DNA of 64,000 nucleotides from an uncultured Lachnospiraceae bacterium (GTDB lineage: Bacteria; Bacillota; Clostridia; Lachnospirales; Lachnospiraceae), in contig CADANR010000003.1 of assembly GCA_902789265.1 (NCBI GenBank), positions 5,603 to 69,602 on the forward strand, in the 5' to 3' direction. Under the pieces are notes generated by a model. That model had not been told where the DNA came from. It was given only the letters and a program-made list of their open reading frames with translations, and did not search any database. The stretch's first letter is position 1. Each line of letters begins with the position of its first letter. Positions 37,113 to 48,374 of the stretch are shown one piece after another. The position numbers were made by a program, and so were the translations under genes.

Positions 37113-40100
37113 TTATCGTGCTCCCGCATCATACAGTAATTCCCCAAGAACACGAATCAGGTTGTCCGCTTCCACGGGTTTGGTTAAATGTGCATTCATT
37201 CCTGCCTGTATGGAAAGCTTTGCATCCTCATCAAAAGCATTTGCCGACAACGCAATAATCGGGATTTGTTTTGCATCCTCCCTGTCCATGGAACGGATTA
37301 TTCTCGTCGCCTCCAGACCATCCATCTCCGGCATACGGACATCCATAATGATTGCCGAATAAATTCCGACAGTACTGTTTTTAAATAAATCAATCGCTAT
37401 CTTTCCGTTTTCGGCATGATCCGCTTTTATGTCTTCCATTTCGAGAATATCCATTATAATTTCCGCATTTAATTCCATATCTTCAGCAAGAAGAATTCTT
37501 CTTCCCGAAAGCTTTACACGATTCTTTTCCGTGAAAATATCCAGTTTACTACGTCTTGCAATATTCTCGATATTATCCAAAAGATTTGTAGTAAACAAGG
37601 GTTTCGGAAGAAAACCGTTCACTCCGACATTATTAGCTTCCGCCTGTATATCATCCCAGTTATATGCAGTCAGCGCAACAACAATACTCTCTTCGGAGTA
37701 CATCCTGTTGATTTCCGCAGAAGTTTCCGGGCCGCTCATTCCGGGCATATTCCAGTCCATAAGTACCATATTGTAAGGCCTATATTTGGCATGCTGCACT
37801 TCCATTTTACGTAATGCTTCCTGCCCGCTCGTGCACGTATCTGCCGCAATTCCGATTTCTTCAAGAACAATTCTTGCATGCTCCGCTTCAATCGGGTCAT
37901 CGTCAACGACCAGAATATAAAAGTTTGCCGGATCAATTGCATTTGTATGATTTACATTTTTTGAATTGGCATTTCCGAGTGATAATACAACTTCAAATTC
38001 CGTACCGATGCCTTTCTCGGATTTCACATTAATCGATCCGTTCATCATTTCCACAATCCGCTTGGTAATCGCCATTCCGAGACCGGTGCTTCCGTACTTT
38101 GTTTTATTTTCTGCATTCTCCTGTGAAAACGCCTCAAAAAGCTTCGGAATATAGTCTTTATCCATTCCGATTCCGGTATCCCTGATATCAAAACGAAGGG
38201 TGGAACGGTCTTCGTATTCCGCAATCTTTTCAACCGTCAGAATAATGTCTCCGGGTGCATCCGTAAATTTAATGGCATTTGACATGATGTTTAAAAGCAT
38301 CTCCCTGAGTTTCGTTTCATCCCCGAAAAATGTTCCGTTTACCATATTCACAAGACGGCACTCGTAATGAAGTCCCTTTTCATTGCACTGCGTCAAAACC
38401 ATGGTATTAATTTGTTCCAGAAGGGCAAATAAGGAAAATTCTTCCTTATGCATGAGCATCCGTCCGGATTCAATCCGGCTCATATCAAGAATATTATTGA
38501 TAATTCCGAGAAGATGTTTGGAGCTGTTGCCGATTTTTTCCAGATAATCACGGGTTTCGGGAGTCAGATCTTTATTTTTCAAAGCAAGAGCATTGAGTCC
38601 GATAATTGCATTCATCGGTGTGCGGAGTTCGTGACTCATACCGAAAAGAAATGCAGTCTTTGCTTTACTGGCTTCTTCCGCAGCTTCCAATGCTTCTGCG
38701 AGAACTTTGTTTTTCGCAATGGTTTCATGTATTTCCGCATCAACGTCCGTAATTCCCATGATAATATACTGCTCGTCTTCCATACGGGAAATTTTGATGG
38801 TAACGTAGTACGGACAGTTTTCTTTTACAATACGTGTGGTCATGACAAAAGTATCTTTCCGTTCCAAAGCTTTCATCAGTTCTTTACGTTTCATGGCCTG
38901 CAAGAATGCATTCCGGTCCTCTTCAAAAACCTTCCCTGCCAGTTCATTCCTGCAGTCACTGAAGAAATGCCATCCACGACGAACCTCGGAAAAGGAATGA
39001 TCCTCTTCGTTAATCTGATACTCAATATATTCTTCCGTATCCGTATTCACATAGTACATGTCCATGAAATCACGGGCCAGTATCTGTGCAATTCGCGAAT
39101 ACATAAGACCTGCACTAACCGCCTTTTCATATGCTTCCTTCGTCATGGCCTGCTCATGCTGAATGCTCACCATCTCCGTTACATCCTGGCACATACCGAG
39201 AACACAGAGTCTTCCCGACGTATCCGTATATTTTAATTTAGTTGTTTGTAACTGTCTGTGATTACCGGCAGCATCCGGAACATCCTCAAAGAAAACATAA
39301 GGTTTGCTTAAAGAAATTGCAATTTTATCATCCTCTGCGAAATGTTTTGCCGTTTCAGCATCAAAAATCTCTGCATCGGTAAGACCTGCCACTTCGTCAG
39401 GACTGTCTTTATGCGCATAATCGGCAAAACCCTGATTGCAGAAAATGTAAACACCGGTTTCGACATCTTTCGTAAATGTCATACCGGGCATATTGTCCAA
39501 AAGAGATTTAAACCTGTCTTTCAGCTCGTTAATCTTTTCCGCTTCTTCCCGGCTGCGCTTATGTTCTTCTTTTTCATCAATTGCGACAAAGGAATGCAAA
39601 AGACATGTCCCCAGCATATATGCAATGGAATAAAGCGGAAGATACGGAAACCATAACTGTGCAAAAAGACAGGCTGCCATGATGAATCCAAAAGCTGCCA
39701 GAGTTCTGTAGCGGTTACGTTTATCCGCAGATTTTACATTACGAATCATCGTCGCCAGAGAATAGACGGAAATGTTAAGCAACAATAAAATCTGGCATAC
39801 CAGCATAACATAACGGAACGGAAGTGCCTCGTAAACACATTTTTTATCCACAGTAAATAACACCGGTTTAAAAATATTTACAATAACCAGTACGGTGATC
39901 AATCCGGCAACAATACGGCTTGCAAAAATGAGAGCCTTTCCGTTCCTGTTCCTTTCTTCCAGATATATCACTGCAAATTCCGCCCAGAATAAGACTCCTG
40001 CCGACATTGCAATAAAATAGACGGTTGTATCTGCAAAAAGTGATTTCGGCATTTTTAAATATTCAAAAACACCCCAAATAATATCCGTTATATAATATGT

Positions 40101-40235
40101 CAAAACAGTAAGCAAAAATCGCCTGTATTTTTTCCATGCAGGTTTTTTAAATGAATCATCGGAATGAAACAGAATATCCCGGTTCACTATTATTAATACA
40201 AAGACTGCAAGCAGTCCGATTGCAGAATAATACAT
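37113..40235 (-). CDS. hybrid sensor histidine kinase: multi-TM N-terminal domain, two PAS-like modules, HisKA, HATPase and two receiver domains
   Basis: 1040 aa with H-box SHELRTPMNAIIG and G-box GSTGLGMAI. REC1 is YILVVDDDP...LMDWNMPGMSG; REC2 is RILLAEDME...IMDVRMPEMDG...TKP. Confidence 0.85.
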   Translation of the reverse strand: MYYSAIGLLAVFVLIIVNRDILFHSDDSFKKPAWKKYRRFLLTVLTYYITDIIWGVFEYLKMPKSLFADTTVYFIAMSAGVLFWAEFAVIYLEERNRNGKALIFASRIVAGLITVLVIVNIFKPVLFTVDKKCVYEALPFRYVMLVCQILLLLNISVYSLATMIRNVKSADKRNRYRTLAAFGFIMAACLFAQLWFPYLPLYSIAYMLGTCLLHSFVAIDEKEEHKRSREEAEKINELKDRFKSLLDNMPGMTFTKDVETGVYIFCNQGFADYAHKDSPDEVAGLTDAEIFDAETAKHFAEDDKIAISLSKPYVFFEDVPDAAGNHRQLQTTKLKYTDTSGRLCVLGMCQDVTEMVSIQHEQAMTKEAYEKAVSAGLMYSRIAQILARDFMDMYYVNTDTEEYIEYQINEEDHSFSEVRRGWHFFSDCRNELAGKVFEEDRNAFLQAMKRKELMKALERKDTFVMTTRIVKENCPYYVTIKISRMEDEQYIIMGITDVDAEIHETIAKNKVLAEALEAAEEASKAKTAFLFGMSHELRTPMNAIIGLNALALKNKDLTPETRDYLEKIGNSSKHLLGIINNILDMSRIESGRMLMHKEEFSLFALLEQINTMVLTQCNEKGLHYECRLVNMVNGTFFGDETKLREMLLNIMSNAIKFTDAPGDIILTVEKIAEYEDRSTLRFDIRDTGIGMDKDYIPKLFEAFSQENAENKTKYGSTGLGMAITKRIVEMMNGSINVKSEKGIGTEFEVVLSLGNANSKNVNHTNAIDPANFYILVVDDDPIEAEHARIVLEEIGIAADTCTSGQEALRKMEVQHAKYRPYNMVLMDWNMPGMSGPETSAEINRMYSEESIVVALTAYNWDDIQAEANNVGVNGFLPKPLFTTNLLDNIENIARRSKLDIFTEKNRVKLSGRRILLAEDMELNAEIIMDILEMEDIKADHAENGKIAIDLFKNSTVGIYSAIIMDVRMPEMDGLEATRIIRSMDREDAKQIPIIALSANAFDEDAKLSIQAGMNAHLTKPVEADNLIRVLGELLYDAGAR

Positions 40236-40261: not shown

Positions 40262-43200
40262 CTAATGCTTTTTTCTGGCTTTTAAGATGCTCTTATTTTC
40301 ATACATCTTCTTATCCGCGCGTTCGTAAACGGCTGAAACCTTTTCATCCGCTTCATACCTTGACATACCTAATGCAATTACAACTCCGCCGTTTTCTAAA
40401 GCTTCATCATTATGGCAGTTAACCTGCTCTACGAGTTCATCAATATGTGCGTAATCATCCCCCTGGGACAGGACTGCAAACTCATCTCCGCCCACACGGA
40501 AAACAGGGCTTCTTTTGAACGTCATGCAGACAATTCTGCAGGCATCACGCAAATACTGGTCTCCTGCTTTATGTCCTTCATTGTCGTTTACCTTCTTTAA
40601 ATCATTAACATCCAGAATAATGATTGCGAATTCCGGAGCACGACCGATATTAATCTGTGCATTCAGTCTTTCTTCATAAACACGATATGCGTTCCTGTTC
40701 TTTACTCCCGTAAGCGCATCGATATTTGCTTCAATTCTGGCCTGGGCAAGACGTTTGCCGTATTCTTCTTCCTGGCGGACCGCCGCATCAATATCATTGT
40801 ATCCGATAATCAGTCGCTTTCCTTCATCCTCCTCTAACATTACGGCTTTCAACTGAACATATCTGGGTTCGCCGTCAAGCATAATCCGGTAGCTTAATGT
40901 AAAGAGTCCGTTCTTATCCACTTCGTCTAAAACCTTTTCCCTCGTTACCATCGAAATAAATAGTCCCTGGTCCTCAGGGTAAATCAATTTTTCTGCTTTT
41001 ATTCTGGAATCCGAGAAGAAATTTTCTCCCTCTCTGAATCGATCAAAACTTTCAAAATTCGAAGTTGCGCTGATTTCACGATACTGACATGTTTCCGGAT
41101 TTACAACATAGATACAGAAGAAATCACCGGCAAGTGCACTGATTCTGTTATATGCAATCTGTTCCTCTCGCATTTTAGCAGCGGCATTATGTTCATTCAT
41201 CTGCTCGCTGACATCCATTAATGCGATAATAATAAATCTGTTGTCATCCTGCATTCTGGTAATTTTCATGCTGACGTAACTCGGTTCTTCTTTCCCTTTG
41301 AGTCTTATTGTCATCATAAAATTATTGTTCTGGTCCAAATGTTTCTCCAGAGTCTTTCGGTCCATTGCGGCTTTTACGGCTTCCTGATCTTCCGGTAATA
41401 CATGTTCCTCAATAATGTCCATGCATTCTTCAAAGAAATGGAAACCTCTTCTGTTTTCAATCAAAGTACCGTTTTCATCATCCGTCAGATAACTGATAAA
41501 TTCTTCCGAATTTAAATCCACATAGAAAAGATTCTCGTAACCATGTGCCAGAGTCTGCGCAATGTGAGCGTAAATAATACCCGTACTTAAAGCTTTTTCA
41601 TAAGATTCCTTGGATCCGACACTTCCTCTTGTTATATGCACGAAGTCAGTAACATCCTGGAAAATACCGAGAATACATTCCCGTCCGGAATCGTCCGTAT
41701 ACTTTAATTTGGTTGTCTTAATCTGTTTTTTGCGTCCGGAAGCATCCGATAAATCATCATAGAATACATATGGACCATCCATGGACAAAGCCATATTGTC
41801 ATCTTCCGCATAACGTTTTGCGGTTTCTTCATCAAATAATTCCGAAGCGGTAAGTCCGACTACATCCTCCGGTTTTTTCTTATGCGCATAATCCGCAAAT
41901 GCCTGGTTGCACGCAAGATATTTTCCGGTTTTTGCATCTTTGGTATAGTTCATGCCCGGCATATTATCAAGAAGAGATGTTACCGTCTGTTTCAGATTGG
42001 CAATCTCCTCTGCCTCCTTTAACAATACCCTTTGTACATTGGCTGTCCTGTCCGCTTTAATTTTTTGAACAAGCAGGAAAATAATAATGGAGAATACCGC
42101 AATAAGAAGGAGCATGACAATCATCCAGTTATCCTTTAAAAACTGCATAAATGTAACTTTTTGATCAGCCTGCATGTAGGAAGCAAGTGCAGAATCCATA
42201 TCTTCGCTCTTGGTCAGTATCGTTGACTTATTCATTAAGAAGTAAAGTTCGGTATCCCATTTTCTTACAGCAAAAGAAAACGACATGTTTTCACCGGTAG
42301 GTACGGAAAATAAATTGTATTTTTTCAATGTTTCCTCTGCCGAAGGAATTCGGTAATTGCTGACTAATACTGCATCCGTTTTCCCATCCGCAACAGCTTT
42401 ATAGCAGGCAGGAAGTCCCGGATATTCCACCCTTTTTGTCTTGGGATAATGTTCCATAATAAAGGATTCGATATTCATCATTCCTTCATTTACCGCAAGA
42501 GTAATCGTACTGTCTTTCGAAAGTCTTTCCTGTTCCGAAACCCGCATAATAGCATTCATTTCCGTCTTCATGGCCGGATCCGTTAATCTTATATTCTTCT
42601 GATCTGCATCATAAGAGTTTAAATTAACCGGGAAATAGCAGTCTATCTCTCCTGCATCCATTGCAATAAGCGCTTCTTCCGTTGAATTGTAAGGAATTGT
42701 TTCAAATTGAATGTATGGTTTGTCTAAAACATTCTGCGAATGTATCAGATAATCCTTAAGCGCTCCGGTCAGTTCTCCGGTTTCATCATCCATATCGCAA
42801 AACGGCAGGTAATCATCCCGATATCCAATCCGTATGGTACCGTGTTCCTTAATCCAGTCTTCGATTTCCGGTGTAAGCGTCGTACTCGTTCTTACATCAT
42901 AGGTTCTTTGTTCCGTTATCATCTGATTGAAATACGGATCTTCATCATGGATTTCAGCTAAAGCCATATTCAGTTCGGCAAGCAGATCCGGACGTTTTTT
43001 GTTTACGGCATAATAATAATCGGAGCCGCCGATTCTGGCGGAAGGAATTAACATCTGTTCCGATTCATACATGTAGACGGATGCATATCCGTCAAGTTCG
43101 CCTTCAGAAACCATTTGCATGGAAACAGTTTCTTCCGCGGTAAGCGAAACGATTTCCAGATTCACTTTGTATTTTTCGGCCCATTCGCGAAGATACATTT

Positions 43201-43666
43201 CCTGAATACTGTCTTTGTTGACACCGACACGTTTTCCGTTTAAAGTTGACGGATCATCTGCTGCAATATCCCTGTTTTTCGAATCAATATAAATGTAATA
43301 AGATTCCGTTCCCATCGGGAGATCGGTAAAGGACATAAATTCTTCTCGTTCCGGCTTATATGACACATCGCTTAAAAGATCGATTTTCCCCTCCTTTAAC
43401 ATTTGAAAAAGATTGGGCCAGCTGTCTTCCACATATTCATATGTCCATCCGGTATAAGCAGAAATCTTCTGCTGATACTCATAATCGATACCGCATCTTC
43501 TTCCGTAATCATCATAATAACAGAATGACGAATCAAACCAGCCGACACGTACAACTTTGTGTTCCGGTTCATCAGCACGAGCCGTAACAGGAGCAAAAAG
43601 ATTTATTACAAATGTGAAAAGCAAAAGGAATATTATTATCCTTTTCGGAAATAGATTTCTTTTCAT
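40262..43666 (-). CDS. sensor diguanylate cyclase: signal peptide, two family-3 solute-binding domains, TM, PAS-like modules and GGDEF
   Basis: Start placed at ATG 43666 (MKRNLFPKRIIIFLLLF...ARADE), forming an ATGA overlap with the stop of the upstream gene. SBP_bac_3-like segments VVRVGWFDS... and TIRIGYRDDYLPF... TM MIVMLLLIAVFSIIIFLLV. Intact RVGGDEFAV motif. Confidence 0.85.
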   Translation of the reverse strand: MKRNLFPKRIIIFLLLFTFVINLFAPVTARADEPEHKVVRVGWFDSSFCYYDDYGRRCGIDYEYQQKISAYTGWTYEYVEDSWPNLFQMLKEGKIDLLSDVSYKPEREEFMSFTDLPMGTESYYIYIDSKNRDIAADDPSTLNGKRVGVNKDSIQEMYLREWAEKYKVNLEIVSLTAEETVSMQMVSEGELDGYASVYMYESEQMLIPSARIGGSDYYYAVNKKRPDLLAELNMALAEIHDEDPYFNQMITEQRTYDVRTSTTLTPEIEDWIKEHGTIRIGYRDDYLPFCDMDDETGELTGALKDYLIHSQNVLDKPYIQFETIPYNSTEEALIAMDAGEIDCYFPVNLNSYDADQKNIRLTDPAMKTEMNAIMRVSEQERLSKDSTITLAVNEGMMNIESFIMEHYPKTKRVEYPGLPACYKAVADGKTDAVLVSNYRIPSAEETLKKYNLFSVPTGENMSFSFAVRKWDTELYFLMNKSTILTKSEDMDSALASYMQADQKVTFMQFLKDNWMIVMLLLIAVFSIIIFLLVQKIKADRTANVQRVLLKEAEEIANLKQTVTSLLDNMPGMNYTKDAKTGKYLACNQAFADYAHKKKPEDVVGLTASELFDEETAKRYAEDDNMALSMDGPYVFYDDLSDASGRKKQIKTTKLKYTDDSGRECILGIFQDVTDFVHITRGSVGSKESYEKALSTGIIYAHIAQTLAHGYENLFYVDLNSEEFISYLTDDENGTLIENRRGFHFFEECMDIIEEHVLPEDQEAVKAAMDRKTLEKHLDQNNNFMMTIRLKGKEEPSYVSMKITRMQDDNRFIIIALMDVSEQMNEHNAAAKMREEQIAYNRISALAGDFFCIYVVNPETCQYREISATSNFESFDRFREGENFFSDSRIKAEKLIYPEDQGLFISMVTREKVLDEVDKNGLFTLSYRIMLDGEPRYVQLKAVMLEEDEGKRLIIGYNDIDAAVRQEEEYGKRLAQARIEANIDALTGVKNRNAYRVYEERLNAQINIGRAPEFAIIILDVNDLKKVNDNEGHKAGDQYLRDACRIVCMTFKRSPVFRVGGDEFAVLSQGDDYAHIDELVEQVNCHNDEALENGGVVIALGMSRYEADEKVSAVYERADKKMYENKSILKARKKH

Positions 43667-46626
43667 GCTTCTCCACCTCCACATTCCAGAATAAGACGGG
43701 CTATCGTCTCATATAATTTATCCGGTTCTACCGGTTTAGATAAATGCTCATTCATTCCGGCACAGATAGAGTCTTCCACATCATCATCAAACACATTGGC
43801 TGTCATTGCTATGATGGGAATACTTCCTGCATCTTCGCGGTTTAAAGCGCGAATAGTACGTGTTGCTTCCAGACCGTCCATCCTGGGCATACGCACATCC
43901 ATCAGAATTGCTGCATAATACCCCGGCATTTTTTCTTTAAACATCCGAACAGCCTCTAAACCGTCGCAAGCCCGTTCCGCAAGGATATCTTCCAGTTCCA
44001 GCAGATCGGAAAGTATTTCCGCATTTTGATCCACATCTTCTGCCATTAATATTCTCTTGCCTGCAAGAACGGTTTCGTAAGATACCGTTTCATTCTCCAC
44101 CATTATAGTGCGATTACTCTCGGAAAGACCTGATTTTGTATTCTCATCCGCACTTCTTTTTGATGCTTCAAGCGGAACAACTATTGTAAATGCAGTGCCT
44201 TCTCCCTTCTTACTTTCAACGGAAATCTCACCGCCCATCATTTCCACGAGATTTTTGGTAATTGCCAGTCCCAGACCGCTTCCACCGTATTTGTTGGTAT
44301 TACTGTCATCCTCCATGGAAAATGTATCAAAGAGATGCGGAATATATTCGGGATCCATTCCGATACCCGTATCCTTCATAATAAACCGCATTCTGCAAAT
44401 CCCTTCTTCTTCGGATAACTGTTCCACCGTAAGAAATACATCCCCCGGGGCATTGGTGAATTTTACGGAATTTCCGAGAATATTTATTAAAACCTGTTTC
44501 AGTTTTAAATCATCGCCGATATAATAATCCTTCATTTCGCCGATCACATCGCAATGAAAACTGAGTCCTTTTTCCTGACATTGTCCATTAATAATGATTT
44601 GAATCGGATCCAGAAATCCCTTGAATAAAAATTCCTCATTCTTCACACTCACATGTCCCGATTCGATACGGCTCATATCCAGGATATCATTGATTAAGCC
44701 AAGCAAATGTTTTGCGCTGATACCGATTTTTTCAAGATGATCTCTCGTGCGCGGAGTCAGGTCCGGCTCTTTTAATGCTATCGTCTGAAGACCGATAATG
44801 GCATTCATCGGAGTACGTATTTCATGACTCATATTCGAAAGGAAACTGGATTTTGCCCGTGATGTTTCCTCTGCACGCGCCTTTTCGATTTCAATCATTT
44901 TCTCTCTGTTTTGCAAAATGTTATATATATCCAGAAGAATCAAAAGAGCTACCGCAATGAGTCCGATCTGAATATAACTGGCAATACGCACGGAGCCTTC
45001 GACTTTCGAAGTTTCATCCTGAAGAAACAGACCATCCGAGGACTTAGCGAAAAAATCTTTATCATGTGTATTCATTTGTTTCCATACAGTACTCTCATAC
45101 TTTTCAAGTGCCTGATTCGTGGTTTGATGCATCCAGACCGTGGAAGTAAAAACAATGAGCCCCAAAAGAACTACCCATGCAATAATGGATTTCCCCATGC
45201 GGCGTTCGTGATCCCGCTTAATAAATACACGAAAATACAGGAAGCCGCATATACTCCAGACAGAAAGAATCATATAGGATTCCGTGGATAATGTGCTGAT
45301 GGAAAGAATATTCGGGATTAAAAATTCAATCGCAAAAAGGACGGATATTACAAGCCCGAGCAGTCCGAATATTTGATATTTTCTGTTATTATCCTTTCTT
45401 GCGGTTTTAAACGCGGATGCAGAAGCCATTGCATAAGCAATTGTAGCTCCGACCGTGGTAACATCCACAATCCAGCTGATTGCAGTTCTACCTAAAAGCG
45501 GAAAAATTGCAGAGAATAAAAGAATACTCAGAATTGCATTTCGCGGAACGAAATTTTTTTTCTTTCCGAGCCATTTAGGGAAAAGACCGTCTGAAGAAAG
45601 AGAATCCACAAGTCGGCTTAATGCAATATAATTACCGATTAATCCGGTAAAAATTCCTCCCATTGCGGCAATACCCAGAATCAAACTTCCATTCTTTCCC
45701 ATAGCCTGAAATGCCGCATGGAAAGTCGGTTGTGAAGCAGCTCCGGAATAGTTCCCGAGATTTCTGATATAATCTGTCCAGGAAGTGCATCCTTCCGGAA
45801 ATGTTTTTACTGCCATAAGGGATAATAAGATATACACAATCGTCGCCGTAATTACAGCAACAAGAAGTACGGGAAATGATTTTTTTAAGGAAAACTTTGC
45901 TTCCGCCGCAGAATGCGAGATGGATTCAAAACCGACAAAAGCCCATGGTGCAAGGGCAAAAATGGTAAATACACCGGATGCGGCACTTTTTCCCGGTGCA
46001 AATGCCGGGAAATATCCGCCGGTTCCGAATTTGCCGGCAACGACAACAAAACAAACGACCACGCCCATGAATAAAAGAACAGCCATAATAATCTGTGTAA
46101 CGGCAGCAGGTTTCCGAAACAGGCAAACCACAGCCGCAAGCACGAGCGCACATTCTGCCAGAAGAATTTCACCGACATAGATCGAATATCCTGCGAGATC
46201 ATAGAGATGACCGAATTGAAACAGATTACCGACAAGTGTCCTCATGATTAAAGGTAACGCAGTTGCATTCGCCCAGATAATTGCGATATAAGTCAGAATC
46301 AAAAACCATGCGCTTAAGAATCCCTGGTCGTATCCAAAGGCATTCTTTGTATAAGTATATGCCCCGCCGCCGTCCGGATAACGATTCATCAGATAGTGGT
46401 AATTAACGGCAATCAACAGCATAACCAATCCGCCGAGTCCGAGTCCGACAGTTGTTCCGACCGGACCCGCAATGGGTAAAAACGTGGTTCCGGGCATAAC
46501 AAAAGACCCCCAGCCCACACTGCACCCGAATGCAAGCGCCCATGCGCCGAGAAGTCCCAGATATTGTTTACTCTTTAAAGAAAAACCTTCCTCATTCATG
46601 AAATGTTCCACGATGCCCCCCGACAT
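43663..46626 (-). CDS. APC-superfamily permease domain fused to a histidine kinase and receiver (transporter-like hybrid sensor kinase)
   Basis: 987 aa. The N-terminal ~470 aa are permease-like (GAWALAFGCSVGWGSFVMPG..., many TM helices), followed by extra TM helices. H-box SHEIRTPMNAIIG, G-box GGSGLGLAI, REC RILMAEDVD...LMDVRMPRMDG...SKP. Confidence 0.8.
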   Translation of the reverse strand: MSGGIVEHFMNEEGFSLKSKQYLGLLGAWALAFGCSVGWGSFVMPGTTFLPIAGPVGTTVGLGLGGLVMLLIAVNYHYLMNRYPDGGGAYTYTKNAFGYDQGFLSAWFLILTYIAIIWANATALPLIMRTLVGNLFQFGHLYDLAGYSIYVGEILLAECALVLAAVVCLFRKPAAVTQIIMAVLLFMGVVVCFVVVAGKFGTGGYFPAFAPGKSAASGVFTIFALAPWAFVGFESISHSAAEAKFSLKKSFPVLLVAVITATIVYILLSLMAVKTFPEGCTSWTDYIRNLGNYSGAASQPTFHAAFQAMGKNGSLILGIAAMGGIFTGLIGNYIALSRLVDSLSSDGLFPKWLGKKKNFVPRNAILSILLFSAIFPLLGRTAISWIVDVTTVGATIAYAMASASAFKTARKDNNRKYQIFGLLGLVISVLFAIEFLIPNILSISTLSTESYMILSVWSICGFLYFRVFIKRDHERRMGKSIIAWVVLLGLIVFTSTVWMHQTTNQALEKYESTVWKQMNTHDKDFFAKSSDGLFLQDETSKVEGSVRIASYIQIGLIAVALLILLDIYNILQNREKMIEIEKARAEETSRAKSSFLSNMSHEIRTPMNAIIGLQTIALKEPDLTPRTRDHLEKIGISAKHLLGLINDILDMSRIESGHVSVKNEEFLFKGFLDPIQIIINGQCQEKGLSFHCDVIGEMKDYYIGDDLKLKQVLINILGNSVKFTNAPGDVFLTVEQLSEEEGICRMRFIMKDTGIGMDPEYIPHLFDTFSMEDDSNTNKYGGSGLGLAITKNLVEMMGGEISVESKKGEGTAFTIVVPLEASKRSADENTKSGLSESNRTIMVENETVSYETVLAGKRILMAEDVDQNAEILSDLLELEDILAERACDGLEAVRMFKEKMPGYYAAILMDVRMPRMDGLEATRTIRALNREDAGSIPIIAMTANVFDDDVEDSICAGMNEHLSKPVEPDKLYETIARLILECGGGEA

Positions 46627-46683
46627 TCATATTTTTATAAAAACATTTCACATTCTGAATAAATATTTCATTCTAAAACATAT

Positions 46684-47082
46684 TCATATTATATACTTTT
46701 GACCGGATCGTTCAACAGATTCTGCGTATCTTTTTATCCCCTCCACAGTATTCGCATACATGTTTCGAATCATCTCAATCTTTGTTTTTACTTCTTCATC
46801 CGAAAATTTCCTTGCACTGCCCGGACGATATTCTTCCGAAATCTCAGAAAACGCATCGGAAAGATTCATAAGCCCCAGATTTGAACAGACTCCCTTCAAT
46901 GCATGTGCCGTTTCAAACAGTTCCGTGGGATTCATGCTGTTTCCGGCAGCGAAAAAATTGTCCGAAACATTGTTTTCCGGAAACTTACGAATATGTTTAT
47001 CAATCAGTTTATCCATACGGAGAATCCGGACAGCCTGATCGTAATCGCCGTTTATATTTTGATATAATTCCTGAATTGTCAT
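46684..47082 (-). CDS. Hpt (histidine phosphotransfer) domain protein
   Basis: 132 aa with the phospho-His motif AHALKGVCSNLGL. Confidence 0.85.
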   Translation of the reverse strand: MTIQELYQNINGDYDQAVRILRMDKLIDKHIRKFPENNVSDNFFAAGNSMNPTELFETAHALKGVCSNLGLMNLSDAFSEISEEYRPGSARKFSDEEVKTKIEMIRNMYANTVEGIKRYAESVERSGQKYII

Positions 47083-47118
47083 GTAGAATCTTCTTTCAGC
47101 TTATAGCAGTTAAATTCT

Positions 47119-47177
47119 GTTTCATTTAAATCCGTTTCATTTATAGCTGTTTCATTTAAAGCTGTTTCATTTATAGT
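47119..47177. repeat. 15-bp direct repeat x4 (gtttcattta + 5 nt) between the DUF362 gene and the Hpt gene
   Basis: The copy core gtttcattta starts at 47119, 47134, 47149 and 47164, an exact 15-bp period. On the minus strand it reads TAAATGAAAC x4, followed by TATAAG and the Hpt ATG. Confidence 0.85.
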
Positions 47178-48302
47178 TTACTTCATCGTTATCAGTTCGT
47201 ACGATCTCGTACCGATACCGATTTTCTCTGCATGCTCCAGCGTTTCTTCCCAGGAAACATTCGGATTGCTGTTATGCCATACATCTCCGTGATCATGAAA
47301 ATGCTCACGCGCCATATTATCGCCGAGCTGGCTGTTTCTGATCGGCTCTGCTTTCTGGCAAAGATCCACGCATGCCTGGTCGAGTGCCACCGGATCAAAG
47401 GATGCCAGCATTCCGATATCGGGTAAAATCGGTGCATCATTTTCTCCGTGACAGTCACAGTTCGGAGAAACATCGGTAATTAAGCTGATATGGAAATGCG
47501 GTCTTTCGTTTAACACGGCAGCCGTATATTCGGCCATTTTTCTGCCGAGAATTGCAGCCGCATCCCAGTTATCGTTTTCGATTGCATCGAATGCACAGGC
47601 ACCGATGCAGCGTCCGCATCCCTTACATTTTTCCGGATCAATCCATGCTTTTTTATCCGTATAACTGATGGCATCCGAGCCGCATTCTTTTGCACATCTT
47701 CTGCATCCTTTACATTGTGCTTCAATTACATGGGGATGTCCCGAATTATGCTGCTGCATTTTTCCGGCACGACTCCCGCAGCCCATTCCGATGTTTTTGA
47801 TGGCACCACCGAAACCGGCCATTTCATGTCCTTTGAAATGATTTAAGGAAACCAGAATATCCGCATCCATTACGGCACGTCCGATATATGCTTCCTTACA
47901 GTATTCCCCATTCGGAACCGGTACCGCAATGTCATCCGTTCCGCGAAGCCCGTCGGCTATAAGAATCTGACAGCCTGTGGTAATTGTATTGAACCCGTTG
48001 ATGTTTGCGCAGTCCAAATGCTCGAGCGCATGCTTCCTGCTTCCCGGATACAGCGTATTGCAGTCGGTCAGAAACGGCAGTCCACCCTGTTCTTTAATCA
48101 CATCTGCAACCGCCTTTGCATAATTCGGTCTTAAATACGCAAGATTCCCGAGTTCTCCGAAATGCATTTTGATTGCCACGAACTTGCCGTTCATATCAAC
48201 GGAGCCGATGCCCGCCGTCTTAATCAGTTTTTGAAGTTTCGCAGTTAAGCTGACGCCCAAAACGGTTCTGAAATCGGTAAAATAAACTTTTGACTTCTCC
48301 AT
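47178..48302 (-). CDS. DUF362 domain protein with a 2x[4Fe-4S] ferredoxin insert
   Basis: Start at ATG 48302 (MEKSKVYFTDF), preceded by GGAGGAAG. Cys motifs CKGCRRCAKEC and CKGCGRCIGAC. Confidence 0.8.
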   Translation of the reverse strand: MEKSKVYFTDFRTVLGVSLTAKLQKLIKTAGIGSVDMNGKFVAIKMHFGELGNLAYLRPNYAKAVADVIKEQGGLPFLTDCNTLYPGSRKHALEHLDCANINGFNTITTGCQILIADGLRGTDDIAVPVPNGEYCKEAYIGRAVMDADILVSLNHFKGHEMAGFGGAIKNIGMGCGSRAGKMQQHNSGHPHVIEAQCKGCRRCAKECGSDAISYTDKKAWIDPEKCKGCGRCIGACAFDAIENDNWDAAAILGRKMAEYTAAVLNERPHFHISLITDVSPNCDCHGENDAPILPDIGMLASFDPVALDQACVDLCQKAEPIRNSQLGDNMAREHFHDHGDVWHNSNPNVSWEETLEHAEKIGIGTRSYELITMK

Positions 48303-48374
48303 CGGCTTCCTCCTTTTCTTATTCGGAATATTCAATATCCTAAGTCCCTTGATTCACCACATTTCATATGTTCT

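What the first reader, a model, noticed from the sequence alone, without database searches (positions are those of the whole stretch)
43663..46626. Amino-acid/polyamine-type permease fused to a histidine kinase and receiver: a transporter-like sensor
The first ~470 residues have the look of an APC-superfamily permease: a glycine-rich first helices GAWALAFGCSVGWGSFVMPG and about a dozen hydrophobic segments. Two or more additional TM helices and a ~60-aa loop follow, then a complete HisKA-HATPase-REC unit. Solute-carrier-fused kinases are known for the sodium-solute symporter family (CbrA/CrbS type), but to my knowledge an APC-type fusion has not been characterised. It would couple substrate flux or binding directly to a phosphorelay. 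Its gene is translationally coupled (ATGA) to a protein with two extracytoplasmic solute-binding domains, which strengthens a nutrient or amino-acid sensing role.
Basis: partly seen in the sequence, partly recalled or inferred. Interest (0 to 1): 0.65.

Follow-up and report, generated by a model that had tools for sequence, protein, structure and literature searches.

The report
Amino-acid-permease-like sensor fused to kinase
One rumen-bacterium gene joins a complete amino-acid-transporter-like membrane domain to a signalling kinase, and it belongs to a large, uncharacterised family in which this transporter module acts as a plug-in nutrient sensor for several bacterial signalling enzymes.

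Summary
ORF 43663..46626 (-) is one uninterrupted 987-aa protein. It has an APC/AA_permease_2 core of 12 TM helices, a TM13-loop-TM14 hairpin, then HisKA, HATPase_c and REC with all catalytic motifs.

The fusion is not an assembly artefact. Independent bovine-gut metagenome contigs cover it without indels. More than 100 homologues at 58-98% identity share the architecture.

- **Partner gene:** an Hpt phosphotransfer gene lies directly upstream. It holds that position in 63 of 73 related loci.
- **Downstream gene:** its ATG overlaps the stop as ATGA. It encodes a 2xSBP_bac_3-TM-PAS-GGDEF diguanylate cyclase, not a plain binding protein. A paralogous PAS hybrid kinase follows.
- **Modularity:** the same 14-TM module is fused elsewhere to GGDEF, GGDEF-EAL, HD-GYP, PP2C and LytS-type kinases.
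- **Conservation:** substrate-site helices are as conserved as the kinase H-box. The external loop is not conserved.
- **Typical output:** most loci carry a REC-GGDEF-EAL regulator, which points to c-di-GMP.

My best reading is a ligand-sensing "transceptor" hybrid kinase feeding an Hpt phosphorelay. It works like CbrA but is not a member of that family: no SLC5 domain, no STAC, no PAS. I found no paper describing it. Ligand and transport activity are unknown.

The parts
46684..47082 (-). Hpt histidine phosphotransfer protein, 132 aa, with an H-A-L-K-G motif. It ends 57 nt upstream of the sensor kinase gene.
   Evidence: Pfam Hpt, E 1.4e-5, 25.7 bits against a cut-off of 24.6. Sequence read. 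An Hpt gene is immediately upstream in 63 of 73 related loci and in R. albus, E. ruminantium, Blautia and a further metagenome contig.
43663..46626 (-). APC-permease-like hybrid sensor histidine kinase, 987 aa. The true start may be the GTG at 46611.
   Evidence: Model mean pLDDT 82.5. Homologue P0001 begins MEHFMNEEG.
45214..46560 (-). APC / LeuT-fold core, residues 23-471, TM1-TM12. Carries the TM1 motif G34-x3-G38-W39-G40 and the TM6 motif P227-W-A-x-G-F-E234.
   Evidence: Pfam AA_permease_2, 97.6 bits. PDB sequence search: GkApcT E 4e-9. Foldseek: GkApcT TM-score 0.80, AdiC 0.83 with rmsd 3.5-3.6 A. Invariant residues listed.
44914..45186 (-). Transducer hairpin, residues 481-571: conserved TM13, a variable external helical loop (503-550), and TM14.
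   Evidence: Entropy is 0.55 bits for TM13, 2.57 bits for the loop and 1.35 bits for TM14. A TM13-like segment is also present in GGDEF-, HD-GYP- and SpoIIE-fused relatives.
44656..44913 (-). Cytoplasmic linker helix plus HisKA/DHp, residues 572-657, with phospho-acceptor His601. In the model it is continuous with TM14.
   Evidence: Pfam HisKA. Model helix 528-617. H601 invariant. No STAC, HAMP or PAS match in residues 448-600.
44167..44517 (-). HATPase_c catalytic domain, residues 704-820, with intact N, G1 and G2 boxes.
   Evidence: Pfam E 8e-28. N715, N719, D752, G754, G756, G784 and G786 are invariant; G782 is kept in at least 90%.
43702..44052 (-). Receiver domain, residues 859-975, with E863, D864, phospho-acceptor D910, T942 and K964.
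   Evidence: Pfam E 2e-20. Invariant or near-invariant columns. 56% identical to REC2 of the third gene.
40262..43666 (-). Membrane diguanylate cyclase: 2xSBP_bac_3 (external), TM, PAS_4, GGDEF with an intact GGDEF motif. Its ATG overlaps the kinase stop codon as ATGA.
   Evidence: The same gene lies immediately downstream in 8 of 49 related loci and in R. albus and E. ruminantium.
37113..40235 (-). Second hybrid kinase: multi-TM N-terminal domain with no Pfam match, PAS_4, HisKA, HATPase_c, REC, REC. It is a paralogue of the first kinase core.
   Evidence: 43% identity over kinase plus REC; the PAS module is paralogous to that of the cyclase.
47117..47176 (.). Four tandem copies of a 15-nt unit in the 95-nt gap upstream of Hpt. 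It may be a promoter or operator element. It is strain-variable.
   Evidence: TRF period 15, 3.8 copies, 88% matches. Sequence. One metatranscriptome contig skips 47103 to 47178. Absent upstream of Hpt in L005.

Best explanation
The protein is a transporter-derived sensor (a "transceptor") hybrid histidine kinase.

**Anatomy.** Its N-terminal 14-TM module is an APC-family amino-acid-permease core (12 TM, LeuT fold) followed by a conserved TM13-loop-TM14 hairpin.

**Proposed mechanism (inferred).**
1. A small amino-acid-like solute binds in the canonical pocket between the unwound parts of TM1 and TM6.
2. Occupancy, or the conformational state of the core, passes through TM13/TM14.
3. TM14 continues as one helix into the DHp helix that carries His601.
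4. Autophosphorylation therefore changes directly, with no STAC, HAMP or PAS in between.

**Phosphorelay.** The phosphoryl group goes from His601 to Asp910 of the protein's own receiver. It then goes to the Hpt protein encoded directly upstream, and on to a terminal receiver. In most related genomes that terminal receiver is a REC-GGDEF-EAL protein, so the system's usual output is c-di-GMP turnover.

In this window the operon instead adds an SBP-gated diguanylate cyclase and a second, paralogous PAS hybrid kinase. That kinase probably feeds the same Hpt.

**Transport.** Net transport may be retained. If so, it is not proton-coupled in the manner of GkApcT.

**Shown versus inferred.** Shown: domain identity, fold, intact catalytic motifs, authenticity of the fusion, synteny, modular reuse and the conservation pattern. 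Inferred: ligand binding, direction of signalling, phosphotransfer partners and transport.
For: **Domains and fold.** Pfam matches. GkApcT and CAT hits in the PDB by sequence. Foldseek TM-score 0.80-0.83 to GkApcT and AdiC, with ShkA, GacS and HK853 matching the kinase part.

**Site residues**, mapped onto the GkApcT residues described in PMC5803215:
- TM1 G38-W39-G40 corresponds to G42-T43-G44.
- W228 corresponds to the gate residue F231.
- E234 corresponds to the essential D237.
- R338 corresponds to R327.
- All four are invariant in 113 sequences.

**Conservation by region**, in bits of entropy: TM1 0.36, TM3 0.27, TM6 0.58, TM10 0.47, against HisKA 0.42, HATPase 0.89 and the external loop 2.57.

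**Pocket variation.** Positions 36, 112, 328 and 332 differ between subgroups. Position 332 corresponds to the GkApcT selectivity residue M321. The scaffold stays fixed.

**Modular reuse.** The same module is fused to GGDEF, GGDEF-EAL, HD-GYP, SpoIIE/PP2C and LytS-type kinases.

**Stand-alone members.** Three of the four examined lie beside or overlap GGDEF or kinase genes, and the fourth lies beside a Ser/Thr protein kinase gene.

**Synteny.** Hpt is upstream in 63 of 73 loci. REC-GGDEF-EAL proteins occur in the typical cluster.

**Catalytic residues** are invariant or near-invariant.

**Authenticity and expression.** Independent DNA contigs show no indels. Metatranscriptome contigs span all gene junctions.
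Against: - No ligand, transport or phosphorylation data exist for any member.
- The TM1 Trp (GWG in place of the usual G-S/T/A-G) could fill or block the pocket.
- GkApcT's proton-coupling Glu115 is replaced by T112, and the Na2-surrogate Lys191 by F186. The normal energised cycle may therefore be lost.
- No terminal response regulator is encoded in the 64-kb window.
- I had no model coordinates, so the contact between TM13/TM14 and the core was not examined.
- The metatranscriptome contigs may contain carried-over DNA.
Confidence: 0.65

Rival explanations
1. The protein is a pure receptor. The APC domain binds ligand but has lost transport, as in yeast Ssy1 or the spore germinant receptor subunit GerAB. 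Signalling depends on binding alone.
For: E115 is replaced by T112 and K191 by F186 relative to GkApcT. There is an unusual bulky Trp in the TM1 G-x-G motif. The whole subfamily, including stand-alone members, sits with signalling genes rather than catabolic ones. An APC-type protein acting as a receptor is precedented by GerAB (PMC8617281, listed).
Against: Gate and cycle residues are invariant: W228, E234 (GkApcT D237, essential for transport) and R338 (GkApcT R327). Many genuine APC exchangers and facilitators also lack the Lys and Glu (own knowledge). CbrA keeps transport even though signalling does not need it (PMC7096432, abstract).
Confidence: 0.3
2. The permease core is only a membrane anchor or scaffold. 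The real stimulus is read by the external TM13-TM14 loop, or delivered by partner proteins such as the SBP-GGDEF protein.
For: A TM-loop-TM unit directly before DHp is the classical sensor kinase layout. A protein with two external binding domains is translationally coupled.
Against: The loop is the least conserved part of the protein, at 2.57 bits and 20% mean identity. The core's pocket helices are near-invariant. The SBP-GGDEF gene is present in only 8 of 49 related loci. A 450-residue anchor would not be kept so conserved, nor reused with five kinds of output.
Confidence: 0.07
3. The information flow is reversed. The protein is primarily a transporter, and its activity is regulated by the attached kinase and receiver or by the phosphorelay.
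For: The permease core is complete with conserved gating residues. Regulatory C-terminal domains on transporters are common (own knowledge).
Against: A dedicated Hpt partner and intact autokinase motifs argue for outward phosphotransfer. The same module is fused to signal-producing enzymes (GGDEF, EAL, HD-GYP, PP2C), which have no obvious way to gate a permease. No catabolic or amino-acid genes are linked in the loci examined.
Confidence: 0.07
4. The fusion is an assembly or frameshift artefact that joins two separate genes.
For: Assembly graphs break at 44655-44694, inside the conserved H-box region shared with paralogues. One relative, in L085, appears split into two ORFs.
Against: Contigs from separate studies cross the junction with no indels. 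112 homologues share the architecture, including one in a 3.8-Mb Ruminococcus albus contig. Of 80 loci from different species genomes, 73 show the permease joined to kinase domains and one to GGDEF; the other 6 show the permease alone, mostly at contig ends.
Confidence: 0.01

Closest known systems
SLC5/STAC sensor kinases CbrA and CrbS/MxtR of Pseudomonas and Vibrio
   Same: A LeuT-fold secondary-transporter domain is fused N-terminally to a histidine kinase in one polypeptide. CbrA binds and transports histidine and is called a rare "transceptor" (PMC13488458, PMC7096432, PMC7918813).
   Different: The transporter family differs: AA_permease_2/APC (TC 2.A.3) here, not SSF/SLC5. There are 12+2 TM helices rather than 13. 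There is no STAC and no PAS, and TM14 runs straight into DHp. The kinase is a hybrid with its own REC and an Hpt partner, not a classical kinase with an NtrC-type regulator. The hosts are anaerobic Firmicutes and Actinobacteria of the ruminant gut, not Proteobacteria. The module is also fused to c-di-GMP enzymes and PP2C.
GkApcT and the SLC7 cationic amino acid transporters (CAT); AdiC
   Same: These are the best sequence and fold matches for residues 14-465: E 4e-9, TM-score 0.80-0.83. The unwound TM1 G-x-G, the TM6 aromatic gate and G-F-(D/E), and the TM8 Arg are shared. Eukaryotic CATs also have 14 TM helices (own knowledge).
   Different: Identity is only about 16-20%. W39 replaces T43, T112 replaces the proton-coupling E115, and F186 replaces K191. 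These transporters have no signalling domains.
Ks-Amt5, the ammonium-transporter-fused histidine kinase of Kuenenia
   Same: A transporter domain fused to a histidine kinase acts as a sensor/transducer (PMC5764959, abstract).
   Different: The fold is unrelated (Amt/Rh trimer), the ligand is ammonium, and it is a single characterised case.
APC-type proteins that act as receptors or co-sensors without fusion: GerAB (spore germinant receptor), yeast Ssy1/Gap1, E. coli LysP with CadC
   Same: An APC-fold amino-acid-binding protein is used to sense rather than, or as well as, to import (GerAB: PMC8617281; Gap1 cited in PMC11109136; Ssy1 and LysP/CadC from own knowledge). Stand-alone members of the present subfamily sit beside GGDEF or kinase genes in a comparable split arrangement.
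   Different: In those systems the signal passes through separate partner proteins. There is no Pfam Spore_permease match here, and no covalent link to a kinase in those systems.
Hybrid kinase/Hpt phosphorelays such as GacS, RetS and ShkA
   Same: The kinase core and receiver match these structurally. The Hpt-mediated relay logic is shared. In most homologues the protein has two receivers, like ShkA.
   Different: The input domain is entirely different. The Hpt here is a separate small protein. No c-di-GMP-binding pseudo-receiver was demonstrated.

Membership tests
APC superfamily amino acid permease (Pfam AA_permease_2 / TC 2.A.3) | Sequence match to the family model above the curated threshold | tested here: met
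   PF13520, 97.6 bits against 27. PF00324, 64.3 bits against 24.6.
APC superfamily amino acid permease (Pfam AA_permease_2 / TC 2.A.3) | LeuT fold with a 12-TM core | tested here: met
   AlphaFold2 model with pLDDT about 90 in the core. Foldseek TM-score 0.80 to GkApcT and 0.83 to AdiC.
APC superfamily amino acid permease (Pfam AA_permease_2 / TC 2.A.3) | Unwound TM1 G-x-G and TM6 G-F-(D/E) substrate-site motifs | tested here: met
   G38-W39-G40 and G232-F233-E234 align to GkApcT G42-T43-G44 and G235-F236-D237. G38, W39, G40, G232 and E234 are invariant in 113 sequences, and F233 is kept in 112 of 113. The Trp in the middle position is atypical.
APC superfamily amino acid permease (Pfam AA_permease_2 / TC 2.A.3) | Solute transport activity | not testable with these tools
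   Needs uptake or counterflow assays.
APC superfamily amino acid permease (Pfam AA_permease_2 / TC 2.A.3) | Membership of a named, curated transporter subfamily | tested here: not met
   The best NCBIfam matches are TIGR00909 (85.5 bits against a cut-off of 556.8) and BcaP (85.4 against 690), both far below threshold. This is a separate, unnamed subfamily.
Hybrid histidine kinase (HisKA type) with Hpt phosphorelay | H-box His plus N, G1 and G2 ATP-binding boxes | tested here: met
   H601, N715, N719, D752, G754, G756, G784 and G786 are invariant, and G782 is kept in at least 90%. Pfam HisKA and HATPase_c match.
Hybrid histidine kinase (HisKA type) with Hpt phosphorelay | C-terminal receiver with the acidic pair, phospho-Asp, Thr and Lys | tested here: met
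   E863, D864, D910 and K964 are invariant, and T942 is kept in at least 90%. Pfam Response_reg, 73 bits.
Hybrid histidine kinase (HisKA type) with Hpt phosphorelay | A cognate Hpt domain or protein | tested here: met
   The adjacent 132-aa Hpt carries HALKG. The position is conserved in 63 of 73 loci. Phosphotransfer itself was not tested.
SLC5/STAC sensor kinases (CbrA, CrbS/MxtR) | N-terminal SSF/SLC5 solute:sodium symporter domain | tested here: not met
   No SSF match. The domain is AA_permease_2.
SLC5/STAC sensor kinases (CbrA, CrbS/MxtR) | STAC domain between the transporter and the kinase | tested here: not met
   A Pfam scan of residues 448-600 at E up to 1 gives no STAC, HAMP or PAS match. 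Only about 30 residues separate TM14 from His601.
Spore germinant receptor B subunits (Spore_permease) | Match to the Spore_permease family model | tested here: not met
   Not among the Pfam hits at E up to 0.01.

The most novel reading that the evidence does not exclude
The "GWG-type" 14-TM APC module (permease core plus TM13-loop-TM14 transducer) may be a general membrane sensor domain of anaerobic gut bacteria that has not been described. In this reading it is a true prokaryotic transceptor family. It reads an amino-acid-like nutrient and is wired, fused or split, to phosphorelays, c-di-GMP cyclases and phosphodiesterases, HD-GYP and PP2C phosphatases. It would have diversified its pocket for different ligands and spread between phyla within the rumen by horizontal transfer.
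Probability: 0.5. Interest if true: 0.75.

Novelty: new variant of a known kind. Interest (0 to 1): 0.62.

Why it matters
Transporter-derived receptors are regarded as rare in prokaryotes. PMC11109136 and PMC13488458 both say so. The studied bacterial cases are the SLC5/STAC kinases and one Amt-kinase.

This finding points to a third lineage, of APC type, and it is populous. There are 380 clusters at 50% identity with E up to 1e-30. At least 595 stretches in a collection holding one genome per species encode a relative.

The lineage behaves as a modular input domain and is tied mainly to c-di-GMP signalling. It lives in rumen fibre degraders such as Ruminococcus albus, Eubacterium ruminantium and Butyrivibrio. 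In bacteria generally, c-di-GMP often governs adhesion and biofilm formation (own knowledge; not examined here), and nutrient sensing bears on feed conversion.

The family also offers a clean system for asking how a LeuT-fold conformational cycle is converted into a kinase signal. No STAC or PAS intervenes, and TM14 is continuous with the DHp helix. Cultured hosts exist for genetics.

Tried and rejected
- **Literature.** Eight full-text searches combined amino acid permease, APC, AA_permease, HisKA, GGDEF, transceptor, transporter-like sensor kinase and related terms. None found a paper on an APC-kinase fusion. The hits concerned CbrA/CrbS, Amt-kinase, the ECF-S/5TMR link and GerAB.
- **NCBIfam.** The N-terminal domain gave only sub-threshold matches, so no substrate could be transferred.
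- **Rfam.** The whole window gave no riboswitch or other RNA family, and so no c-di-GMP riboswitch.
- **Promoter and terminator scan.** Promoter-like sites were no more frequent than in shuffled sequence; terminator-like sites were somewhat more frequent (15 against a mean of 8.4), but most lie inside the coding sequences and none marks the end of the operon, so I placed no weight on the scan.
- **Terminal regulator.** I searched the window for another REC or GGDEF gene. None was found.
- **Tandem repeat as conserved operator.** Rejected, because it is absent upstream of Hpt in the closest locus (L005) and is skipped in one contig.
- **L085 as a natural split (Rosetta stone).** The downstream kinase ORF begins inside a TM13-like segment (MWMCQ...). 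It is more likely a frameshifted fusion, so I count it only weakly.
- **Cluster look-up for names and organisms.** It returned almost no annotation.
- **Model coordinates.** They were not available to scripts, so pocket geometry and TM13/TM14-to-core contacts could not be measured.

Full report
**1. What is in the sequence**

ORF 43663..46626 on the minus strand is one open frame of 987 codons. Pfam places five domains on it, each far above its gathering score:
- AA_permease_2 on residues 23-437 (E 1e-27, 97.6 bits against 27).
- AA_permease on residues 37-433.
- HisKA on residues 591-657.
- HATPase_c on residues 704-820.
- Response_reg on residues 859-975.

A hydropathy scan and the helices of an AlphaFold2 model give a 12-TM core. 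The model has a mean pLDDT of 82.5, and about 90 in the membrane core. After the core come a strongly basic cytoplasmic loop (466-482, six K/R), TM13 (481-502), an external helical hairpin loop (503-550) and TM14 (551-571). The basic loops fall on alternate sides as expected for an N-in, C-in topology, so the kinase is cytoplasmic.

In the model, residues 528-617 form one continuous helix. It runs from the external loop through TM14 into the DHp helix that carries His601. Pfam finds no STAC, HAMP or PAS between TM12 and the H-box, even at E up to 1.

**2. The fusion is real**

I laid contigs from four bovine gut metagenome runs, each from a different study, on 43600-47100. No insertions or deletions appeared. 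One contig covers 43600-46653 with 12 substitutions and no gaps. Another covers 43600-45704 across the permease-kinase junction.

A search with the N-terminal 587 residues returned 1695 relatives. Of the best 120, 112 are at least 900 aa long, and nearly all of those carry the identical five-domain set. The few short ones sit on short contigs. Named sources include Eubacterium ruminantium, Ruminococcus albus (on a 3.8-Mb contig), Blautia, Lachnospiraceae and Oscillospiraceae. NCBI simply calls them "amino acid permease".

**3. The permease domain compared with known transporters**

By sequence, the nearest solved structures are the proton-coupled amino acid transporter GkApcT (6f34/5oqt, E 4e-9) and the eukaryotic CAT1 and CAT4 transporters. 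By fold, the model matches GkApcT (TM-score 0.80) and AdiC (0.83, rmsd 3.5-3.6 A over about 470 columns). The C-terminal half matches ShkA, GacS, HK853 and RetS.

I used the alignment and the residue roles described for GkApcT (PMC5803215):

| GkApcT residue and role | Residue here |
|---|---|
| G42-T43-G44, carboxylate-binding TM1 | G38-W39-G40 |
| I40 | S36 |
| F231, extracellular gate | W228 (AdiC also has Trp here) |
| I234 | V231 |
| D237, essential | E234 |
| R327 | R338 |
| V317 / M321, selectivity positions | G328 / N332 |
| E115, proton coupling | T112 |
| K191, Na2-site surrogate | F186 |

In 113 aligned full-length sequences at 58-98% identity, G38, W39, G40, T112, W228, E234, G328 and R338 are invariant.

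The ligand-binding scaffold and the gates are therefore kept. The two residues tied to proton coupling are not. If the domain still transports, it more likely acts as a facilitator or exchanger than as a GkApcT-like symporter.

**4. Where selection acts**

Column entropy over the 113 sequences is as follows:

| Region | Entropy (bits) |
|---|---|
| TM3 | 0.27 |
| TM1 | 0.36 |
| HisKA | 0.42 |
| TM10 | 0.47 |
| TM13 | 0.55 |
| TM6 | 0.58 |
| HATPase_c | 0.89 |
| External loop 503-550 | 2.57 |
| Linker between kinase and receiver | 2.53 |

The pocket-forming helices are among the most conserved parts of the protein. The only sizeable external loop is free to vary. This argues that the stimulus is read by the permease core and not by the loop. 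It also suggests that TM13 is a functional element rather than a passive spacer.

**5. The module is a reusable sensor input**

An exhaustive HMMER search of 1.84 billion cluster representatives gave 2410 hits at E up to 1e-3 and 380 at E up to 1e-30. The same permease module is joined to:
- HisKA-HATPase-REC, in 37 representatives, plus further variants with two receivers.
- GGDEF, in 19 or more.
- GGDEF-EAL.
- HD-GYP-type HD_5.
- SpoIIE/PP2C phosphatase.
- A LytS/YesM-type kinase.
- In one case, a TupA-like ATP-grasp domain.

The TM13-like segment is present in all of the distant fused members whose first 500 residues I read, including GGDEF, HD-GYP and SpoIIE fusions.

The TM1 G-W-G motif, the TM6 P-W-A-x-G-F-(E/D) motif, R338 and the TM10 pattern R380..W385..D388 mark the whole subfamily. 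Positions 36, 112, 328 and 332 differ between subgroups, for example N against F, L or Y at 332. That is the pattern expected if a fixed scaffold has been retuned for different ligands.

Promiscuous fusion to unrelated output domains is the classical signature of a sensory input domain.

Proteins of about 470 aa with the same signature also exist. Of four whose neighbourhoods I examined:
- One overlaps a GGDEF gene by 14 nt (L089/L090).
- One is divergently adjacent to a membrane hybrid kinase (L087).
- One lies next to a Ser/Thr kinase gene (L088).
- One is followed by a kinase ORF that starts inside a TM13-like segment, so it is probably a frameshifted fusion (L085).

**6. Genomic context**

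Directly upstream, after a 57-nt gap, lies a 132-aa Hpt protein with the HALKG motif. In 80 loci from different species genomes, an Hpt gene is immediately upstream in 63 of the 73 with enough flank. It is also upstream in all four loci retrieved separately: two named isolates, a Blautia MAG and a metagenome contig.

The commonest cluster has this order:
1. Sometimes a GGDEF gene.
2. A soluble HisKA-HATPase-REC kinase.
3. A REC-GGDEF-EAL protein of about 570 aa (Pfam).
4. Hpt.
5. The APC kinase, which there usually has two receivers.

The window shows the rarer arrangement, found in 8 of 49 loci and also in R. albus and E. ruminantium. Here Hpt and the APC kinase are followed by a 2xSBP_bac_3-TM-PAS-GGDEF diguanylate cyclase with an intact GGDEF motif. 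Its ATG overlaps the kinase stop codon as ATGA, behind a GGAGG motif. A second hybrid kinase comes next. It has an unassigned multi-TM N-terminus, a PAS domain and two receivers.

The two kinase cores are paralogues at 43% identity. The receiver of the APC kinase is 56% identical to the second receiver of the other kinase. Both plausibly feed the same Hpt. No other REC or GGDEF gene lies in the window, so the terminal acceptor is unknown here. In R. albus a REC-GGDEF-EAL gene sits just upstream of Hpt.

Metatranscriptome contigs from bovine samples cover all four genes. They span the Hpt/kinase, kinase/cyclase and cyclase/kinase-2 junctions. This fits one transcript, although DNA carry-over cannot be excluded.

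**7. Distribution**

Of these, 595 encode a relative. The 80 best are almost all MAGs or isolates from ruminant guts:
- Firmicutes: Lachnospiraceae (best 83% identity), Eubacterium ruminantium, Ruminococcus, Oscillospiraceae, Christensenellales, Erysipelotrichaceae, Anaerovoracaceae, Butyrivibrio.
- Actinobacteria: Atopobiaceae and Coriobacteriaceae.
- Negativicutes: Selenomonadaceae.

Identities of about 60-65% between Firmicutes and Actinobacteria suggest horizontal spread within this habitat. The window's own sequence occurs in many bovine gut metagenomes.

**8. Mechanism, and how sure I am**

The most likely reading is a ligand-sensing transceptor. I put it at about 0.65.
1. An amino-acid-like solute occupies the TM1/TM6 pocket.
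2. The state of the core is relayed by TM13/TM14 into the continuous TM14-DHp helix.
3. That sets the rate of His601 autophosphorylation.
4. The phosphoryl group passes to D910, then to Hpt, then to a terminal receiver. At family level this leads mostly to c-di-GMP turnover.

Whether net transport persists is open. A binding-only receptor is a serious variant, at about 0.3 within this picture. Less likely readings are an anchor-only role with sensing by the loop or by partners, reversed control of transport by the kinase, and artefact.

The ligand cannot be named. The nearest curated families are branched-chain, neutral and cationic amino acid carriers, but all lie far below threshold.

**9. 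Relation to what is known**

Functionally, this is the same kind of device as CbrA and CrbS, which are SLC5/STAC kinases (PMC7918813, PMC7096432, PMC13488458), and as the Amt-fused kinase Ks-Amt5 (PMC5764959).

It is not a member of the SLC5/STAC family. It fails both defining features, the SSF domain and the STAC domain. It also differs in using an Hpt relay and in its range of outputs.

Within the APC family, receptor use is precedented by GerAB (PMC8617281). From my own knowledge it is also precedented by yeast Ssy1 and by the LysP/CadC pair, but never as a covalent kinase fusion.

Recent papers describe prokaryotic transceptors as rare (PMC11109136, PMC13488458). None of my eight searches found a description of this architecture. 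The sequences are in public databases but are annotated only generically.

I therefore rate it a new variant of a known kind, of moderate to high interest.

Noticed in passing
window 47117-47176 (intergenic, upstream of Hpt): There are four tandem copies of a 15-nt unit, about CTGTTTCATTTAAAG on the + strand, between the DUF362 gene and Hpt. One metatranscriptome contig skips 47103 to 47178, so the array is absent in a variant strain. The closest related locus, L005, lacks it. It could be a strain-specific operator or just a variable repeat.
   Followed up: partly
window 37113-40235 (-), residues 1-235: The second hybrid kinase has an N-terminal domain with about 6-7 hydrophobic segments and no Pfam match at E up to 1. 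This domain recurs with the same PAS-kinase in R. albus, E. ruminantium and several MAGs, where I labelled it P3TM. It may be an undescribed membrane sensor domain.
   Followed up: partly
window 40262-43666 (-) and 37113-40235 (-): The PAS_4 modules of the SBP-GGDEF cyclase and of the second kinase are close paralogues (phmmer E about 5e-49). The region after each PAS is also similar. This suggests a shared cytoplasmic cue for both proteins.
   Followed up: no
window 47178-48335 (-): A DUF362 / 4Fe-4S protein gene lies just upstream of the Hpt operon on the same strand. A DUF362 gene also lies about 4 kb upstream of Hpt in the Blautia locus L003. This may be coincidence.
   Followed up: no
L035 7950-17494; also L019, L048, L051: Some genomes carry two or three APC-sensor genes in tandem, for example APC-kinase-REC-REC followed by APC-GGDEF-REC and a third APC gene. 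This indicates paralogous expansion of the sensor module.
   Followed up: no
P0207 (790 aa; six cluster members of the same length): The same permease module is fused to a TupA-like ATP-grasp domain, which is not a signalling output. The fusion recurs on several independent contigs.
   Followed up: no
window 44655-44694: Many short metagenome contigs end or branch here, inside the conserved HisKA H-box region. The cause is presumably that paralogous and orthologous kinases share these words. It is an assembly-graph effect, not a feature of the gene.
   Followed up: partly
window 46599-46626: The start codon of the sensor kinase is ambiguous: ATG at 46626, GTG at 46611 or ATG at 46599. The 98%-identical homologue P0001 begins MEHFMNEEG, which favours the GTG. 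It follows a G-rich stretch.
   Followed up: partly
L020, L028, L029, L037, L041, L050 (Atopobiaceae / Coriobacteriaceae MAGs); L078, L084 (Selenomonadaceae): Proteins 50-64% identical to the window's permease module occur in Actinobacteria and Negativicutes MAGs from ruminants. The Actinobacteria ones (62-64%) are as similar as those of Ruminococcus. This suggests horizontal transfer within the rumen, but MAG binning errors were not excluded.
   Followed up: no
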